The position numbers and the translations under genes are program-made. A model generated the notes under the pieces. That model made no database searches. It saw only the letters and a program-made list of their open reading frames with translations, and was not told where the DNA came from. Source: the human T2T-CHM13v2.0 reference genome, Homo sapiens. From it: DNA of 64,000 bases. How positions within the stretch are numbered: the stretch's first letter is position 1; each line of letters opens with the position of its first letter. Below, piece after piece: positions 11,569 to 64,000 of this stretch. The stretch is taken from the NCBI RefSeq assembly GCF_009914755.1, contig NC_060925.1. The stretch is one strand, 5' to 3'.

Positions 11569-11725
11569 GATGAGGTATCCATCACCTCAAGCATTTATTC
11601 TTTCTTTGTGTTACAAACAATCCAATCATACTTTTTTAGTTATTTTTAAATGTACAATAAATTGTTGTTGACTGAAGTCACCTATTGTGTTATCAAGTAC
11701 TAGATCTTATTCATTCTAAATACAC
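11569..11725 (-). other. 157-bp 3' transduction carried by L1 #1 (old L1MA-like 3' UTR sequence)
   Basis: Lies between the L1 tail (T8, 11726-11733) and a second tail (T10, 11559-11568), inside the TSD; AATAAA on minus strand at 11594-11599. Confidence 0.88.
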
Positions 11726-11830
11726 TTTTTTTTATATACTTTAAGTTTTAGGGTACATGTGCACATTGTGCAGGTTAGTTACATATGTATACATGTGCCA
11801 TGCTGGTGCGCTGCACCCACTAACTCGTCA

Positions 11831-15766
<3,936 letters not shown>

Positions 15767-15830
15767 TATGATGTTAGCTGGTTATTTTGCTTGTTAGTTG
15801 ATGCAGTTTCTTCCTAGTCTCAATGGTCTT

Positions 15831-16847
15831 TTACATTTTGGCATGATTTTGCAGCAGCTTGTACTGGTTGTTCCTTTCCATGTTTAGCGCTTCCTTCAGG
15901 AGCTCTTTTAGGGCAGGTCTGGTGGTGACAAAATCTCTCAGCATTTGCTTGTCTGTAAAGGATTTTATTTCTCCTTCACTTATGAAGCTTAGTTTGGCTG
16001 GATATGAAATTCTGGGTTGAAAATTCTTTTCTTTAAGAATGTTGAATATTGGCCCCCACTCTCTTCTGGCTTGTAGAGTTTCTGCCGAGAGATCTGCTGT
16101 TAGTCTGATGGGCTTCCCTTTGAGGGTAACCCGACCTTTCTCTCTGGCTGCCCTTAACATTTTTTGCTTCATTTCAACTTTGGTGAATCTGACAATTATG
16201 TGTCTTGGAGTTGCTCTTCTCGAGGAGTATCTTTGTGGCATTCTCTGTATTTCCTGAATCTGAACGTTGGCCTGCCTTGCTAGATTGGGGAAGTTCTCCT
16301 GGATAATATCCTGCAGAGTGTTTTCCAACTTGGTTCCATTCTCCCCATCACTTTCAGGTACACCAATCAGATGTAGATTTGGTCTTTTCACATAGTCCCA
16401 TATTTCTTGGAGGCTTTGCTCATTTCTTTTTATTCTTTTTTCTCTAAACTTCCCTTCTCGCTTCATTTCATTCATTTCATCTTCCATTGCTGATACCCTT
16501 TCTTCCAGTTGATCTCATCAGCTCCTGAGGCTTCTGCATTCTTCACGTAGTTCTTGAGCCTTGGTTTTCAGCTCCATCAGCTCCTTTAAGCACTTCTCTG
16601 TATTGGTTATTCTAGTTATACATTCGTCTAAATTTTTTTCAAAGTTTTCAACTTCTTTGCCTTTGGTTTGAATGTCCTCCCATAGCTCAGAGTAATTTGA
16701 TCGTCTGAAGCCTTCTTCTCTCAGCTCATCAAAGTCATTCTCCATCCAGCTTTGTTCCGTTGCTGGTGAGGAACTGCGTTCATTTGGAGGAGTAGAGGCG
16801 CTCTGCTTTTTAGAGTTTCCAGTTTTTCTGTTCTGTTTTTTCCCCAT
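15831..16847 (-). pseudogene. L1 #1 ORF1, disrupted
   Basis: MGKKQNRKTG...HAKM, 1017 nt in one frame, with tandem TGA TGA at ~16515-16520. Confidence 0.95.
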
Positions 16848-17734
16848 CTTTGTGGTTTTATCTACTTTTGGTCTTTGATGATGGTGATGTACAGATGGGT
16901 TTTTGGTGTGGATGTTCTTTCTGTTTGTTAGTTTTCCTTCTAACAGACAGGACCCTCAGCTGCAGGTCTGTTGGAATAGCCTGCCGTGTGAAGTGTCAGT
17001 GTGCCCCTGCTGGGGGGTGCCTCCCAGTTAGGCTGCTCGGGGGTCAGGGGTCAGGGACCCACTTGAGGAGGCAGTCTGCCCGTTCTCAGATCTCCAGCTG
17101 CGTGCTGGGAGAACCACTGCTCTCTTCAAAGCTGTCAGACAGGGACATTTAAGTCTGCAGAGGTTACTTCTGTCTTTTTGTTTGTCTGTGCCCTGCCCCT
17201 AGAGGTGGAGCCTACAGAGGCAGGCAGGCCTGCTTGAGCTGTGGTGGGCTCCACCCAGTTGGAGCTTCCTGGCCGCTTTGTTTACCTAAGCAAGCCTGGG
17301 CAATGGTGGGCGCCCCTCCCCCAGCCTCGCTGCCGCCTTGCAGTTTGATCTCAGACTGCTGTGCTAGCAATCAGCCAGACTCCGTTGGCGTAGGACCCTC
17401 CAAGCCAGGTGCGGGATATAATCCCGTGGTGTGCCGTTTTTTAAGCCTGTCGGAAAAGTGCAGTATTCGGGTGGGAGTGACCCGATTTTCCATGTGGGTC
17501 TGTCACCCCTTTCTTTGACTCGGAAAGGGAACTCCCTGACCCCTTGCGCTTCCCAAGTGAGGCAATGCCTCACCCTGCTTCGGCTCGCGCATGGTGGGTG
17601 CCCACTGTCTAGCGCTCCCTAGTGAGATGAACCCGGTACCTCAGATGGAAATGCAGAAATCACCCGTCTTCTGCATTGCTCACGCTGGGAGCTGTAGAAC
17701 GGAGCTGTTCCTATTCGGCCATCTTGGTTCCTCC
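16848..17734. promoter_or_regulatory. L1 #1 5'UTR with sense (minus) and antisense (plus) promoters
   Basis: YY1 site 'gccatctt' at ~17718-17725; residual CpG richness. Confidence 0.7.
17303..17518 (+). CDS. ORF0: Intact 71-aa LINE-1 ORF0 (antisense ORF of the L1 5'UTR)
   Basis: MVGAPPPASLPPCSLISDCC...HPFL, 72 codons incl. stop; gcaATGG context; donor AG|GTGCGG at 17408/9. Expression unknown. Confidence 0.75.
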   Translation: MVGAPPPASLPPCSLISDCCASNQPDSVGVGPSKPGAGYNPVVCRFLSLSEKCSIRVGVTRFSMWVCHPFL

Positions 17735-18639
17735 TCTCTTCCACATTTTTATCAATTACTCAAGTTGTTTTCACAGCCTCCAGATCTTCCTCCTCCATCA
17801 GCCCAATCCGTGACCACTGGGTTAATCCTCCCAAAGTATTGATACAATTAGGTCACTCACTGCTCAAACATTCCCATTTTATACAAAATGAAGTTCCAAC
17901 CCCTTAACCTGGCTTCAAGACCTTCCACAAACAATGTTTCCAACTTCCTATCCCACAGTACCCAAATATTGGGTCAATGATAGCTCATTTCCAGTCTTTG
18001 CAAATACTGTGTTCTTTCCCCTTCTCTATCATTTCTCCCTGCTCTTCCATATGCTGGGAAAGTCCTACCTGCCTCCACATCCTGTTTTCCCCTTTGGGGA
18101 TCACAGGCACACTTTGAGTCCTTGCCAAGATTCCACTGTCTCAGGATGCCTTCTAGAATCCCCTACCCCACATGCGAAGGAGATTTTCCCTTATCTATTG
18201 GATCAGGTGACCAAGAAAGCTCAATGTTGGACCCCTCCACACATAGACAAAAGGGATTCGTTTCATACCAGGGACAAGAGGAAACAATCATGGAACTTTG
18301 GGTATCAAGATCAATGGCAGGGTGGGCATAGGAGACTGAGGTGCTCATAAACATCATTTCACCTAGGTTGCTGTGAACATTGACTCATGACAGAATAAAT
18401 GCACATGGTTATATCTATTTCTTCTCAAAATGCCAAATTTCTAAAATGACTACAAATTATTTTTAAAATATAAATTCACAAAGACAAAGATCATGGAAGT
18501 AGAGACTATAGTAAATGAGAAATATCACATAATCTTTGAACCTGGAAAGCAGATGGGAAACAACTGATTTCCCAGGACAGTGAAACTTAAGTTCCATGGT
18601 GAAGAAACAATGAGAGGCATCCCACCTGCATCAAATGCC

Positions 18640-19225
18640 TCCTACGCATCACTTCACAACCTCCTGGTCTTGCCTTTTGCCACTTACTCCTCACCATGTA
18701 TTATGCCATAGCCAGCTGTTCATAGGATCTAAACAGATTCATGCAGGCACCAGCCACCAGTGCCTCACCTCATGTTTGCGCTGCCCTGCAGCTTTCCTGT
18801 TGACACTATGGGACTTGCTCAGTGCCCATCCTGCACAACCCAGAACTGCAGAGAAGTTAACTCCCTTTAGGTGAACTTTTGACCAGTGTGATCAAGGGAT
18901 TAGTAAGTAAATTCATCCCTCTTCCTTCCCTCACATAGATTATACCAAGGTGCAGTCATATTTAAAAGCCATCGACTCCACTGCAGGAGTCAGTGGCTCT
19001 TGAACCATGTTAGATTTTCTGTTTCCTGGACTTGATATATTTTTCTTTTTTGATTTATTTGTGGCTTTTGATTTATTTGATGGCCAGCACAGGAACACAT
19101 TTTGTGTTTGCTCTCCTTTACCCCTGCCTCACTCCCATTTTCCCTTACTCCTTTGTTCCTGGGATTGAGCTGCCTACTATAACACAGTACATAAAGGCTA
19201 TGTTTTCTTAATCATGCTGAGATAC
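18640..19225. mobile_element. LTR16-family (ERVL) solo LTR, interrupted by a templated insertion
   Basis: 'cagaactgcagagaagttaactcc...gaccagtg...gtaaatt' LTR16-like motif. Confidence 0.55.
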
Positions 19226-19436
19226 CACCAGAAAGCCAGAAAAATAATCAAGGACAGATAGCCCCCAGAGATCTTTGAAGGCAAGTGTGAGGGATGGGGC
19301 TAAAAACAGGAGGGTCTTTTAAAATCTATATAAGAAGTTTATGCTCTCAGATCCCCTTCCAGTCCCAGATGCCAGGCAACTGCACCTCTACCACCCTGCA
19401 TAAGTCTTGAGTAAAGTTTATGCATTGGAGAAGCTT

Positions 19437-19744
19437 ATTTATCTATTTTCTTTTTGAGAGACAGGGCCTCACTCTGTCGCCCAGGCCGGAGTGCAGTGGC
19501 ATGATCATAGCTCACTGTAACCTCAAACTTCTGGGCACAAACAATCCTCCTGCCTCAGCCTCCCAAGTAGCTAGGACTACACGTGCGTACCATGACACCC
19601 AGCTAATTTTTAAATTTTTTTGTAGAGATAGCGTCTTGCAATGTTGTCCAAGCTGGTCTCAAACTCCTGGTTTCAAGCGATAATCCCACCTCAGCCTCCC
19701 AAGTTGGTATCCTCAAGTTCAAACTCTTATTGAAACTCCTGGCC
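19437..19744 (-). mobile_element. AluJ with rearranged 5' end
   Basis: 'atgatcatagctcactgtaacctcaaact' J-type text; degenerate TSD TGGAGAAGCTT (19426-19436) / TGGAAAAGTTT (19745-19755). Confidence 0.9.
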
Positions 19745-19783
19745 TGGAAAAGTTTCAATAAGACTTTGAACTTGAGGATACCA
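19705..19783. repeat. Near-perfect hairpin: 33-bp arms (32/33), 13-nt loop
   Basis: 19705-19737 is the reverse complement of 19751-19783 apart from one C/C mismatch (19724/19764). Confidence 0.98.
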
Positions 19784-20511
19784 GACACCACTGAGGGCAG
19801 GGCTGAGTAATCTTACTGAAAACGTGGAGATTGAGCATCTAAATATTAGAAAACAAAGTCCAAAGAAACAAATAAAGACAATAAACTTGAAGGGAACAGA
19901 GACAATGTATACAACAGAAAAGAACCATTTTAAAACAATTTCCCAAAAAAATAAGATATTGCATCCATGAAACAAGAGCAGAGTACTATAAAAAATTGAA
20001 AGCACAGAAGAACTTTTGGAAATTAAAAATATAATAGCATAAATAAAAGTTTTAATAGATTGGGGGGGAAGTGAGGAATTGTTTTGATACTGAAACAAGA
20101 AGACAAACAGATGGAAAGCTATCTTTTTTTAAAGCGGGGAATCAATCTAGAGGCCCAATATCCAGCTAATAGAACTTCCAGAGAAAGAATAAGAGGATAC
20201 CGAATGTGCCTAATATAATAAGTTTTAAAAGAACCACACAAGACACATGCTCATGAAATTTTAGAACAAGGATAAAGAGAAAAACTTCAGAGGGAAAAAT
20301 ACATTTAAAAAATCAGATAACAAAATGGCATTTGATACATCTACAAAAATATTAGAAGCTAGGAGATAACAAACCAATATCTTTAACATTCCAAGAGAAA
20401 AAATAAATTTTATCTAACCTGGAATTCAATAGCCAGCCAAACTTTCTCTTACTCTGTCTTACATGTTCAGCAAGGTCTAAAAAAAGACTGATCTACCATA
20501 AATCTTTCTCA

Positions 20512-20902
<391 letters not shown>

Positions 20903-22854
20903 TCAAAGGCATGATTTCTTGGGATTAGAGTGAAGGGAAATCCCAAGGTCATGGCAGTGTAGTGAACCTTGGAGAGTGAGCAGCCCAGGGACAAGGCTGG
21001 TTGAAGCCTCCTGGCGGGTATTCATCCTAGGAAGAACTCATTAGGACACACAGACTACCTCATGTGTTCAACTTTACTGAGGGGAGTTTGATAATTTTGT
21101 TAAGGAGTCTGAAGATGAATTATGTATTTATTACATATTAAACAAACAACCAAAATGAGCAAAGATTGATCCCAGGGAAAACAAAAAGTTATTCAAGAAC
21201 AGAAATGTAATCATTACAGCTTGACTGTTAACATTTGCATGGCAACAATAACAGATACGCTATCTAATCAAAAGTATTAAATAACTATATTAGATTGGGG
21301 GAAGGAAATATTTATGGTACGGTGGGTGGAGGGAGAGAGGGTGGTGAAAGATCCAATTCTCCCCTTCTGTGTTGGGAAAGCAATAAATAATAAGTACAAA
21401 TTTTTAAATCCAGAAGTGGTTATACATTTACATTATTTAGAAACAAAAATGTAATTATCAAGAGAAATAGAAAAAGTTGGATGTTTGCCTTTGGGAAATG
21501 GGACACAGCATTAGGATGAATAGGAGAGGCAACTGCTTTCTTCTGTTATTAATCTTGTGAATTCCATTTGACTTTTAAAACTATGTACATTGTTACTCTG
21601 ATTAGAAGTGGGGGTGGGCAGGCTGGTTGTGAGAACTATAACAGTATGTTACATGAAATTTTTTTTTATTGTCTTGGAATTTGGGCTGAGGCTCCAAAAC
21701 TGAGAAAAATGATGGTGAAATGCCCACACATTCTGAGAGAGTGCTTAGACACATCTCATCTTCAGGGTTTGCACAGGAAAATTCCATCTGTGACCCTCAC
21801 CCCATCACCTGCTTCAGTCCCATAAATAAAAGCAGGTAAATCAAGGATGGTTCAGAGAGCGGATTTCCTGGGACTTGTTACCTTACTTAGTAAGGAGTCC
21901 TGTCCCCTCACCTCAGTCTTGCAGAGAAACACATTTAGAAAGCATAGGCCATCTGCAATGAGCAGAAGGAAACCTTCACTCCATAAGGCTGAAGCAAAGC
22001 AGGGAAAGAGCTTCTGGAGGACCTAAACTACATCTGGGGAGTTTGAGGGGCACAGAGACTAGGGACTGGCACCTGATCCTCACCTGGCAGCAGAAGGTTG
22101 GGGCCGGCTGGAGCTGCCTGTCAGAGCTACCTGGGAGCCCCGAGTCTAGTGGGGCTTTCCCTGGGATAAGCAGATGTCACAATAAGAGCCAGATTAGAGT
22201 TATCTTAAGAGGAACCTGCCCTAAAGGACTGCTTGCTGGGATAAAGTGACCCCAGCAGAGAAGCTGGGTAGGGGGCATGATCCTGGAGAAGGAGCTTAGG
22301 AGAAGTCATTGGAGGTCATCCAGAAGTCCTCATGTTAGAGAACACTGAGGGAAACATTTAAAGGACCCACGAAAGCACCCCATGAGGGAAAGAGCCAGCA
22401 TCTGGACATCCAAAGAGCTCGCACAGGTCCCTGCTACCAAACTGCAGCAGCACCAATCTAGTTAGATGTGTCCTTCTCTCTGCTTTCCCCTCCCACCTGG
22501 CCCTGCAAGAGCCACAGGCAGTGGCCAGTAGGGGGGATGGGATGGAACAGGGAGCTTAAGAAATAAACAGCCACCTTCCACCCCACCTCAGGCGGCTAAG
22601 CATGAGTAGGGCCTGAGTTGGGAGGAAAGAGAAAAGCTTAAATTGGATGTGAAATGAAAGTATTGATTTAGATCCACCTGGCCTTTTTAATACCTGTAAA
22701 TAAAACTTCTAATATCTGAAAGTGACTGGAAAAGCTATAGAATCTGTCCAGGGGCAGAGAAGGGTTATCCAACAGGGCAGGTTTGAAGGACAAGTTGTTA
22801 TTTGCTGGTTCATTTTTTGAAAGTTACCCTATTTTTTTTTAAAAGGAACCAACA

Positions 22855-51800: not shown

Positions 51801-52935
51801 TTACCAACATTAAAAGGAGACCAAACAAATATAAAAATTTTATGTCAATAAATATAACTTTAGATAAGATAGAAATGGGAAAATGAAATAATATAAAATT
51901 AAAATTGGAGAAGGCAGAAGATTAATGGAAGATTTAAAAAGAGTGCAAGAATAGAAAACAGTTACAAATTTGGTGGATATTTATCCAACTATACCAATAA
52001 TCACTTTAAATGTGAATGGTTTAAACTCCTTTAAAGACACAAACTGTCAAAACCACTAAAAAAGAAATAGCTTGAATAGCCCTGTATCTATTAAAGAAAT
52101 TTGGGTTTGTAGTTTTAAATTTTCCCATAAAGGAAACTCTAGGTCTAAACAACTTTACTGAAGAAGTCTACCAAAATTAAGAAATATGTAATATTTATTC
52201 TACATAAACTCTTCCAAAAATAAAATTTGAGGGAGCACCCTGAATTCATTCTATTACTTAAGCATTATCTTGATCCCAAAACCAGGTGGTTATTCTAAGA
52301 AAACTCACCTACAAACTAATTTCCACCATGAACATAGAAGCAAAAATCCTTAACAAAATTTAAGCAAATTGAATCCAGCAATATATAAAAAAGCTAATAC
52401 ATCATGACCAAGTGGAGTTTATCTCCAGAATGCAAGATCAGTTTAACATTTAAAAAAATGTATCAAGGCGTGGTGATTAGGTTTTCACACTCATGTGTGA
52501 GATGTGCCTCCCTTGAACTTTGTTACATTGGCACTTTACCCATTTGACATGGGGGAGAAAAAGAAAATTAAAAAAAAAATCAGTGTAGTGGCCATATTAA
52601 CATTCTAAAAGGAAAATCATATGATCATCTCAATAGTTACACAAAAATCATTTGCCAAAATTCAAAACACACATTTATGATAAAAACTCTCAGTGAACTT
52701 AGAAGGGAACTTTCTCAACCTGGTAAAGGTCATGCATGGGAAACCTACAGCTAGCATAATAATAAATGATGAAAAGCTAAGTTTTTTATCCTAAGATCAG
52801 AAGCAAAGAAAAGATGTTTTCTCTCCCTACTCCTAGTCAACAGAGTACTGGACATACTAGCCACGTGCAATTCGGCTAAAGAAATAAATAGCACCCAGAC
52901 TGGAAAAGAAGAAATAGAACTATTCTAAAATTAAC
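48835..52935 (+). mobile_element. Nested old L1M fragments (ORF1 end to ORF2/RT), with an L1MB-type 3' end inserted at ~50622-50803
   Basis: Degenerate ORF2 motifs such as 'atacatcatgaccaagtggagtttatc'; no long ORF. Confidence 0.8.
52468..52580 (+). pseudogene. U13 snoRNA (SNORD13) retropseudogene, 5'-truncated, A-tailed
   Basis: 'gcgtggtgattaggttttcacactcatgtgtgagatgtgcctcccttgaactttgttac...ggcactttacccatttgac' matches U13; box C is TGGTGA and box D is TTGA (both mutated). Confidence 0.88.

Positions 52936-62394: not shown

Positions 62395-64000
<1,606 letters not shown>

What the first reader, a model, noticed from the sequence alone, without database searches (positions are those of the whole stretch)
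19705..19791. Template-switch hairpin that overwrote an Alu 5' end; candidate de novo pri-miRNA
Seen: in the minus-strand AluJ, the ~28 nt expected between 'cctcccaagt' and the terminal 'cctggcc' are replaced by a 33-nt inverted copy of the downstream flank. The result is a 32/33-bp stem with a 13-nt loop made of the Alu terminus plus the start of its TSD. Established: replication template switching creates such perfect palindromes and has been proposed as a source of new miRNAs; Drosha prefers ~35-bp stems with a basal UG and a downstream CNNC. Inference: on the + strand, UG at 19705-6 places the 5' cut near 19719 (5p UCAAACUCUUAUUGAAACUCCU) and the 3' cut near 19771, and CCAC starts 17 nt later at 19788. 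The hairpin lies ~2.3 kb downstream of the L1 #1 antisense promoter in its direction of transcription. Caveats: these motifs are short, the 53-nt precursor is small, and I do not recognise it as a known miRNA.
Basis: partly seen in the sequence, partly recalled or inferred. Interest (0 to 1): 0.8.

Follow-up and report, generated by a model that had tools for sequence, protein, structure and literature searches.

The report
Young inverted copy overwriting an Alu head
A 33-base inverted copy of the neighbouring DNA has replaced part of an old Alu repeat and made a near-perfect hairpin, a known and common kind of mutation scar, with nothing here showing that it makes a microRNA.

Summary
Arms 19705-19737 and 19751-19783 are 32/33 complementary around a 13-nt loop. 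It is the only near-perfect local inverted repeat in the 64-kb window and is single copy in the genome. Four full-length Alus in the window carry 28 nt of Alu sequence where this Alu has the left arm, and the Alu's last 7 nt and a 9/11 target-site duplication are still in place. So the left arm is a later overwrite, a "1-4-3-2" template-switch event in the published four-point model (PMC5453318). The Alu is 17.4% diverged at non-CpG sites but the arms differ at 1 of 33 positions, so the event is much younger than the Alu.

The microRNA reading is not supported. The quoted geometry and motifs (33-bp stem, basal UG, CNNC at +17) are there. But no Rfam miRNA family reaches its threshold, nothing is annotated, and the locus is intergenic. 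The published base rate for such hairpins being annotated miRNAs is 0.9% (PMC10710096). Primate orthologues and small-RNA data could not be consulted. Verdict: an ordinary, probably neutral member of a known mutation class.

The parts
19426..19436 (.). Upstream copy of the target-site duplication of Alu-1
   Evidence: An unbiased scan of 23 upstream ends by 65 downstream starts gave its best match here: 19426-19436 versus 19745-19755, 9 of 11. On its own the match is weak, since 392 of 2000 shuffles reach 9/11 somewhere in the scan. Its weight comes from abutting both the tail and the Alu terminus exactly.
19437..19455 (-). Degenerate A-tail of Alu-1 (T-rich on the + strand)
   Evidence: Read. 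It aligns with the T-runs of the other in-window Alus.
19456..19704 (-). Retained body of the old minus-strand Alu (Alu-1)
   Evidence: Metazoa_SRP match at 19456-19603 on the minus strand, 55 bits, E 4.7e-13. blastn matches to 7 other Alu copies in the window. Alignment. Non-CpG divergence from the majority of 20 Alus is 38/219 = 17.4%.
19705..19737 (.). Left arm: the derived 33-nt inverted copy that replaced 28 nt of Alu sequence
   Evidence: One search gives the arm. Searches show that 4 of 4 full-length in-window Alus carry Alu sequence here.
19738..19744 (-). Surviving last 7 nt of the Alu 5' end, which forms the first half of the loop
   Evidence: Identical to the terminal 7 nt of the in-window Alu whose junction is at 63085.
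19745..19755 (.). Downstream copy of the target-site duplication. Its first 6 nt are loop and its last 5 nt begin the right arm
   Evidence: The best match for a duplication starting at 19745 is 9/11, against 5/11 for one starting at 19705.
19751..19783 (.). Right arm: the presumed source of the copy, in unique flank just outside the Alu
   Evidence: It is unique in the genome apart from the left arm.
19786..19791 (+). Two overlapping CNNC matches on the + strand
   Evidence: These are motif matches only.
11696..17737 (-). Context: full-length primate L1 whose 5' UTR faces the hairpin
   Evidence: The 5' end was read. For the 900-nt 5' UTR the first look gave 6,182 genome candidates, and the 40 scored (one of them the query's own place) match at 92-100% over nearly the full length. 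The lower bound 11696 is from the hub's repeat mask.
20537..20836 (+). Context: younger plus-strand Alu (Alu-2), head-to-head with Alu-1 across a 792-nt spacer
   Evidence: Non-CpG divergence is 4.9%.

Best explanation
This is a mutational scar, not a gene. An old Alu inserted full-length on the minus strand, with its 5' end at 19744 and an 11-nt target-site duplication. Much later, one templated event copied the 33 nt of flank at 19751-19783 in reverse complement over 28 nt of the Alu's 5' region. Switch point 1 follows 19704, copying ran from 19783 (point 2) to 19751 (point 3), and synthesis returned at 19738 (point 4). That order is type '1-4-3-2' in the four-point template-switch model. 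The result is a 33-bp near-perfect palindrome with a 13-nt spacer that would fold as a hairpin on either strand if transcribed. It most likely does nothing and is drifting. The single C/C mismatch is either the first decay step or an error made during the copying.

Shown: the structure, the overwritten Alu segment, the retained terminus and duplication, and the youth of the arms relative to the Alu. Inferred: the direction of copying, that it was a single event, and neutrality. Whether the polymerase switched at a replication fork or during break repair cannot be read from the sequence.
For: 1. The arms are 32/33 complementary and 13 nt apart. This is the only near-perfect local inverted repeat among the 2 pairs found in the window.
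2. In 4 of 4 full-length in-window Alus, 28 nt of Alu sequence occupy the place of the left arm. The target keeps the Alu body up to 19704 and the last 7 nt at 19738-19744.
3. The best target-site duplication in an unbiased scan starts exactly after that terminus (9/11). A duplication starting at 19705, as a 5'-truncated Alu would need, reaches only 5/11.
4. The Alu's non-CpG divergence is 38/219 = 17.4%. Arms of that age should show about 10 mismatches of 33, with P(<=1) = 8.4e-5, and still P = 0.009 at 10% divergence. One mismatch gives a per-arm divergence of about 1.5% (95% interval 0.04-8.4%), that is 0.002-0.49 of the Alu's divergence.
5. The hairpin stretch matches only itself in the genome, so it is not a palindromic transposon family or a duplicated segment.
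6. The event type is documented. [quoted passage not shown] 53,666 putative events were found in human genic regions alone (PMC10710096, Results).
7. For neutrality: no annotated gene lies within 100 kb upstream, and none in the window except a snoU13 pseudogene (hub table).
Against: The ancestral state was inferred from other Alu copies, not seen in an orthologue, because no primate genome is available here. Paralogues could not show that the right arm is the older copy. The old repeat to its right has detectable relatives only from about window 19818 onwards, and the arm region and left flank are unique.

Microhomology at the switch points is slight. There is TGG at the left junction, with 2 Alu bases missing beside it, and none at the right junction (read). 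The target-site duplication match is not significant on its own (392 of 2000 shuffles). Near-perfect arms could in principle reflect selection or repeated homogenisation rather than youth. Neutrality is an inference from context, since no expression data were available.
Confidence: 0.82

Rival explanations
1. The hairpin is a working, or at least processed, young microRNA (or endogenous siRNA) precursor, transcribed on the + strand from the antisense promoter of the L1 about 2 kb upstream.
For: A stem of 33 bp lies within the 33-39 range and a loop of 13 nt within the 8-16 range that are enriched in miRNA hairpins. CNNC 5 nt beyond the stem base fits the 'CNNC 5-6' class (PMC5340965, passages). 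UG lies 14 nt before and CNNC 17 nt after the proposed cuts, which matches the published positions (PMC6004053, passages). The L1 is full-length with a 5' UTR shared with thousands of primate L1s. In L1HS and L1PA2-8 the antisense promoter lies in the first 600 bp of the 5' UTR (PMC4908685, passages), and here it points at the hairpin from 1,968-2,567 nt away. Template switching has produced annotated miRNAs (PMC10710096).
Against: No Rfam miRNA family reaches its gathering score. The best hairpin hits are 38.4 bits against a threshold of 101.7, and 33.0 against 104. The only gathering-level hit in the window is snoU13. No miRNA or transcript is annotated here (hub table). The base rate is 57 of 6,054 (0.9%) even for intragenic hairpins. 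99 of 111 template-switch miRNAs are intragenic, and that paper counted transposon promoters within 1 kb, not 2 kb.

The two motifs have a joint chance frequency of about 0.01 per position and were picked after the fact. There is no UGU or GUG in the loop (read). [quoted passage not shown] The predicted fold pairs the flanks below the stem and closes the loop to 6 nt, which blurs both junctions. An AATAAA lies at 18394 between the L1 and the hairpin. A full-text search for a 20-mer of the 5p arm found 0 papers. That search covered DNA letters only and no supplements.
Confidence: 0.03
2. The structure is the same, but it was made during double-strand-break repair rather than at a replication fork. 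After a break in the Alu head, the 3' end on the right-hand side snapped back on itself, was extended for 33 nt, and was then joined to the left end through the TGG microhomology (polymerase-theta-type end joining with a templated insertion). This rival concerns only the sub-mechanism.
For: A net deletion (28 nt) combined with a templated inverted insertion from the immediate flank, and 3 nt of possible microhomology at the far junction (read), is the pattern described for snap-back synthesis. The papers PMC4912351, PMC5728401 and PMC9303309 were seen in the search listing and abstracts only. The authors of the four-point model say they make no assumption about the cause of switching (PMC5453318).
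Against: From recall, not checked here: templated insertions in end joining are usually shorter than 33 nt. Nothing in the sequence separates the two routes.
Confidence: 0.2
3. The hairpin dates from the Alu insertion itself, through a reverse-transcriptase template jump onto the target DNA. Alternatively, a palindrome was already there and a 5'-truncated Alu landed beside it.
For: Reverse transcriptases do switch templates, and Alu or L1 5' junctions are sometimes irregular (general knowledge, recalled).
Against: Arms as old as the Alu should carry about 10 mismatches, and only 1 is seen (P = 8.4e-5, or 0.009 at a conservative 10% divergence). The Alu's last 7 nt follow the left arm. The duplication fits a full-length end at 19744 (9/11) and not a truncated end at 19704 (5/11).
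Confidence: 0.03
4. It is an assembly or sequencing artefact (a fold-back chimera) in this one assembly.
For: None was found. Only one assembly could be examined.
Against: The change is a clean 33-for-28-nt replacement inside otherwise collinear sequence. It carries a mismatch between the arms, which a fold-back read artefact would not be expected to create.
Confidence: 0.02

Closest known systems
Short-range template-switch mutations, four-point model type '1-4-3-2' (Loytynoja and Goldman 2017, PMC5453318; Monttinen et al. 2023, PMC10710096)
   Same: A reverse-complement copy of adjacent sequence replaces the local sequence in one step and creates a perfect or near-perfect inverted repeat with a spacer. 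[quoted passage not shown] At 33 nt the copy is well above the 14-bp confidence cut-off used in that work.
   Different: The overwritten sequence is the head of an Alu, so the ancestral state can be inferred from the repeat family rather than from an outgroup. Published catalogues removed events in repeat-masked sequence (PMC10710096; bioRxiv 10.1101/2021.11.26.470150). The genome-wide scan covered genic regions only, so an intergenic event inside an Alu like this one would probably not be listed. I could not see their supplementary datasets.
Template-switch-born primate miRNAs such as hsa-mir-4713 and hsa-mir-576 (PMC10710096)
   Same: The same birth mechanism and a hairpin in the miRNA size range. 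A transposon promoter lies nearby.
   Different: Those loci have read stacks in miRCarta and are annotated, and 99 of 111 are intragenic. This locus has no annotation, no known expression and no family match.
MADE1-type palindromic transposons that gave rise to the miR-548 family (recalled, not checked in a paper here)
   Same: A palindrome of about 80 nt able to fold into a miRNA-like hairpin.
   Different: Those are multi-copy mobile elements. This palindrome matches only itself in the genome.

Membership tests
Template-switch mutation (four-point model) | A fragment (points 2 to 3) copied in reverse complement from nearby sequence, long enough not to be chance (at least 14 bp in PMC5453318) | tested here: met
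   33 nt, 32/33 complementary, source 13 nt away. It is the only such repeat in 64 kb.
Template-switch mutation (four-point model) | The copy replaces the ancestral sequence, with collinear flanks on both sides | tested here: met
   By proxy. 4 of 4 full-length in-window Alus have 28 nt of Alu sequence there, and the Alu body, last 7 nt and target-site duplication are retained. The true orthologous ancestor was not seen.
Template-switch mutation (four-point model) | The order of switch points is one of the observed types (point 4 not before point 1) | tested here: met
   Points 1, 4, 3 and 2 lie at 19704, 19738, 19751 and 19783, which is type 1-4-3-2 (coordinates; types).
Template-switch mutation (four-point model) | Polarity and single-step origin shown on a phylogeny (parent versus child node) | not testable with these tools
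   No primate genomes are held. Paralogues do not reach the arm.
Canonical animal microRNA gene | Hairpin with a stem of about 35 bp and an apical loop of about 10 nt or more | tested here: met
   33-bp stem and 13-nt spacer. However, the minimum-energy fold closes the loop to 6 nt and extends pairing below the stem.
Canonical animal microRNA gene | Processing motifs: basal UG, CNNC about 17 nt downstream, apical UGU/GUG, mismatched GHG | tested here: inconclusive
   UG and CNNC are present at the right distances on the + strand, but each is common by chance. There is no UGU or GUG in the loop. There is no basal mismatch, and the only mismatch is 20 nt from the base.
Canonical animal microRNA gene | Small RNAs with fixed 5' ends from both arms with a 2-nt offset, dependent on Drosha and Dicer | not testable with these tools
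   No small-RNA or CLIP data are held. A paper search for a 20-mer of the arm found 0 papers.
Canonical animal microRNA gene | Membership of a described miRNA family, or an annotation | tested here: not met
   The best Rfam hairpin hits are 38.4 against 101.7 bits and 33.0 against 104 bits. Nothing reaches gathering level there. The hub's RefSeq table has no miRNA.
Palindromic miniature transposon (MITE, e.g. MADE1) | Many dispersed copies | tested here: not met
   The genome search returned only the locus itself, on both strands. The tool warns that its repeat counts are lower bounds.
Full-length Alu insertion | Dimeric SRP-derived body, A-tail, intact 5' terminus and flanking target-site duplication | tested here: met
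   SRP match, alignment to other Alus, terminus and a 9/11 duplication. The subfamily (AluJ) was not formally tested. The high divergence fits an old Alu.

The most novel reading that the evidence does not exclude
A great-ape-age template switch turned the head of an Alu into a Microprocessor-sized hairpin. That hairpin is transcribed only when the neighbouring L1's antisense promoter is unmasked (germ line, early embryo, tumours), and then yields small RNAs. It would be an intergenic, transposon-driven microRNA or siRNA caught at birth, with its ancestral state readable from the Alu family itself.
Probability: 0.03. Interest if true: 0.5.

Novelty: new member of a known kind. Interest (0 to 1): 0.2.

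Why it matters
It matters little on its own. Template-switch hairpins number in the tens of thousands in the human lineage, and their link to new miRNAs is already published.

There are two small points of value. First, an event inside a repeat can be polarised and roughly dated without an outgroup, because the repeat family supplies the ancestral sequence and a divergence clock. Published catalogues discard repeat-masked loci, so this class is under-counted. Second, the locus shows two independent inverted-copy events next to a head-to-head Alu pair, which could be used to ask whether inverted Alus promote template switching.

Tried and rejected
1. Paralogue test of polarity. I searched the genome with the right flank and re-aligned the hits: 24 paralogue loci, then 22 of them, leaving out L012 and L018, which match a different part of the flank. 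The old repeat (it matches the ORF1 region of the window's L1 at 72.9% over 70 nt) has detectable relatives only from about 19818 rightwards. Separate searches with 19745-19870 and 19250-19436 found only the locus itself. The test was inconclusive.

2. MITE or segmental-duplication origin. Rejected, because the stretch is single copy.

3. Known miRNA family. Rejected.

4. The bacterial promoter and terminator scan is not meaningful for human DNA and is ignored.

6. A direct 10-nt repeat (19661-19670 and 19733-19742) spans the return junction. I considered whether it guided the return switch and found no consistent model, so I treat it as chance.

7. I asked whether the 73-nt long-range inverted repeat continues beyond Alu-2. 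Only an 8-nt block plus a T-run aligns, so this is undecided.

Full report
WHAT IS THERE

Window 19705-19783 is a palindrome. The arms 19705-19737 and 19751-19783 are 33 nt each and 32/33 complementary, with 13 nt between them. The one mismatch is C against C at 19724/19764. A scan of all 64 kb for inverted repeats of at least 18 nt lying within 120 nt of each other returned 2 pairs, and the other pair is only 73% complementary.

As RNA, 19690-19805 folds at -62.1 kcal/mol on the + strand and -64.2 on the - strand. The z-scores are -9.4 and -9.3, and 0 of 200 shuffles fold as well on either strand. The same 116-nt frame placed on the 5' junctions of four other full-length Alus in the window gives -16.4 to -35.1 kcal/mol. 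The stretch 19700-19790 matches only itself in the whole assembly, on both strands. It is therefore neither a palindromic transposon family nor part of a duplicated segment.

THE ALU AROUND IT

A minus-strand Alu occupies 19437-19744.
- Its right monomer matches the metazoan SRP RNA model (19456-19603, 55 bits).
- Its body matches seven other Alu copies in the window.
- In the alignment with those copies, the four full-length ones carry 28 nt of Alu sequence between the conserved block ending at the equivalent of 19704 and the terminal 7 nt. The target has the 33-nt left arm there, and then the terminal 7 nt at 19738-19744. Those 7 nt are identical to the terminus of the in-window Alu whose junction is at 63085.

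I scanned 23 possible upstream ends against 65 possible downstream starts for a target-site duplication. The best match was 19426-19436 against 19745-19755, at 9 of 11. It starts exactly after the Alu terminus and ends exactly before the tail. A duplication starting at 19705, which a 5'-truncated Alu would need, reaches only 5 of 11. The 9/11 match is not significant on its own, since 392 of 2000 shuffles reach it somewhere in the scan. Its placement is what counts.

The Alu was therefore full-length when it inserted, and the left arm was written over its positions 8-35 afterwards.

AGE

The retained Alu body differs from the majority of 20 other Alu copies at 38 of 219 non-CpG positions, or 17.4%. 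That figure is somewhat inflated, because the comparison copies are mostly younger subfamilies. The arms contain no CpG.

If the arms were as old as the Alu, about 10 of the 33 pairs should be broken, and P(1 or fewer) is 8.4e-5. Even at a conservative 10% divergence, P is 0.009. One mismatch corresponds to about 1.5% divergence per arm, with a 95% interval of 0.04-8.4%. That is 0.002-0.49 of the Alu's divergence.

The event is thus much younger than the Alu. This excludes an origin at the time of retrotransposition. By recalled primate divergence figures, the point estimate falls among the great apes, but the interval is wide.

MECHANISM

The pattern is the '1-4-3-2' case of the four-point template-switch model. 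Synthesis leaves the original template after 19704, copies 19783 down to 19751 in reverse complement, and returns at 19738. In the human-chimp comparison this type, with its mirror case, made up 31% of high-confidence events. Fragments of 14 bp or more were treated as reliable (PMC5453318, passages).

Microhomology is slight. There is a TGG shared by the Alu and the start of the copy at the left junction, with two Alu bases missing beside it. There is none at the right junction (read).

The sequence cannot tell a replication-fork switch from snap-back synthesis during end joining. The model's authors also leave the cause open. The polymerase-theta literature was seen only as a search listing and abstracts.

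I could not show from paralogues that the right arm is the older copy. The flank is an ancient L1-like fragment: 20374-20443 matches the ORF1 region of the window's L1 at 72.9%. Its relatives are detectable only from about 19818 rightwards. The arm region and the left flank are unique in the genome. Polarity therefore rests on the Alu argument above.

IS IT A MICRORNA PRECURSOR?

- UG lies at 19705-19706, 14 nt before a 5' cut at 19719.
- The paired 3' cut falls after 19771.
- CNNC starts 17 nt later at 19788, and also at 19786.
- These are the published positions (PMC6004053, passages).
- A 33-nt stem, a 13-nt loop and CNNC 5 nt from the stem base all fall in the ranges enriched among miRNA hairpins (PMC5340965, passages).

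Those features are what a template switch of this size produces by construction, plus two short motifs with chance frequencies of 0.077 and 0.137 in this window.

Several things count against the miRNA reading.
- No UGU or GUG lies in the loop.
- The only mismatch sits 20 nt from the base, in a region reported to tolerate unpaired bases poorly.
- The predicted fold pairs the flanks below the stem and shrinks the loop to 6 nt.
- No Rfam miRNA family comes near its threshold: 38.4 against 101.7 bits and 33.0 against 104 bits.
- The only gathering-level RNA hit in the window is the annotated snoU13 pseudogene.
- The hub's RefSeq table shows no miRNA or transcript, and no gene within 100 kb upstream.
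- A full-text search for a 20-mer of the arm found 0 papers. That search used DNA letters only and does not cover supplements.

The best available base rate comes from genic regions. There, 53,666 putative template switches gave 6,054 miRNA-sized hairpins, of which 57 (0.9%) are annotated miRNAs. Of the 111 template-switch miRNAs, 99 are intragenic (PMC10710096, Results read in full).

THE L1 PROMOTER ARGUMENT

The L1 at about 11696-17737 lies on the minus strand with its 5' end at about 17737. For its 900-nt 5' UTR the first look gave 6,182 genome candidates. The 40 that were scored (one of them the query's own place) match at 92-100% over nearly the full length. It is therefore a primate L1 with the common 5' UTR type.

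In L1HS and L1PA2-8, antisense transcripts start within the first 600 bp of the 5' UTR (PMC4908685, passages). That places the promoter 1,968-2,567 nt from the hairpin and pointing at it.

It remains only a possibility. One AATAAA lies in between at 18394. No expression data were available. The miRNA paper counted transposon promoters within 1 kb.

VERDICT

The template-switch origin is well supported by internal evidence and is of a known, common type. The miRNA idea is not excluded but has nothing specific in its favour, and I put it at about 3%. The locus is a new, probably uncatalogued instance of a known kind, since published catalogues drop repeat-masked or non-genic loci. I could not see those papers' supplementary lists.

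Noticed in passing
window 19000-19069 and 20834-20906: There is a second, longer-range inverted repeat. About 73 nt at 93% identity with one 3-nt indel lie in opposite orientation 1.76 kb apart. Together they bracket Alu-1, the hairpin and the old L1-like stretch. Both copies are unique to this locus in the genome, so it is not a transposon's terminal repeat family. The right copy ends exactly at the A-tail of Alu-2. Only an 8-nt block plus a T-run suggests that it continues beyond that Alu. The origin is unexplained: it could be an inverted duplication, an inversion breakpoint or a long-range template switch.
   Followed up: partly
window 19437-19744 (minus) and 20537-20836 (plus): The two Alus lie head-to-head, 78% identical over 257 nt, across a 792-nt spacer. 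The 33-nt overwrite sits at the inner edge of this inverted pair. Close inverted Alus are said to stall replication (recalled, not checked). That might have favoured the switch, but I did not test it.
   Followed up: no
window 52437-52549 (+): snoU13 match, 70.1 bits against a gathering score of 46. It coincides with the annotated pseudogene LOC124904845.
   Followed up: no
window 19478-19537 (+), 19554-19605 (-), 19628-19688 (+): Parts of the Alu body give sub-threshold hits to the Alu-derived miRNA families mir-3135 (40.6 against 80 bits), mir-1268 (39 against 83) and mir-1285 (17 against 56). These reflect Alu sequence, not genes.
   Followed up: no
window 19661-19670 and 19733-19742: An exact 10-nt direct repeat links the Alu body to the junction between the left arm and the Alu terminus. 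It is probably chance.
   Followed up: partly
window 19050-19095: A short tandem duplication of about 18-20 nt lies at the inner end of the left copy of the 73-nt inverted repeat (read).
   Followed up: no
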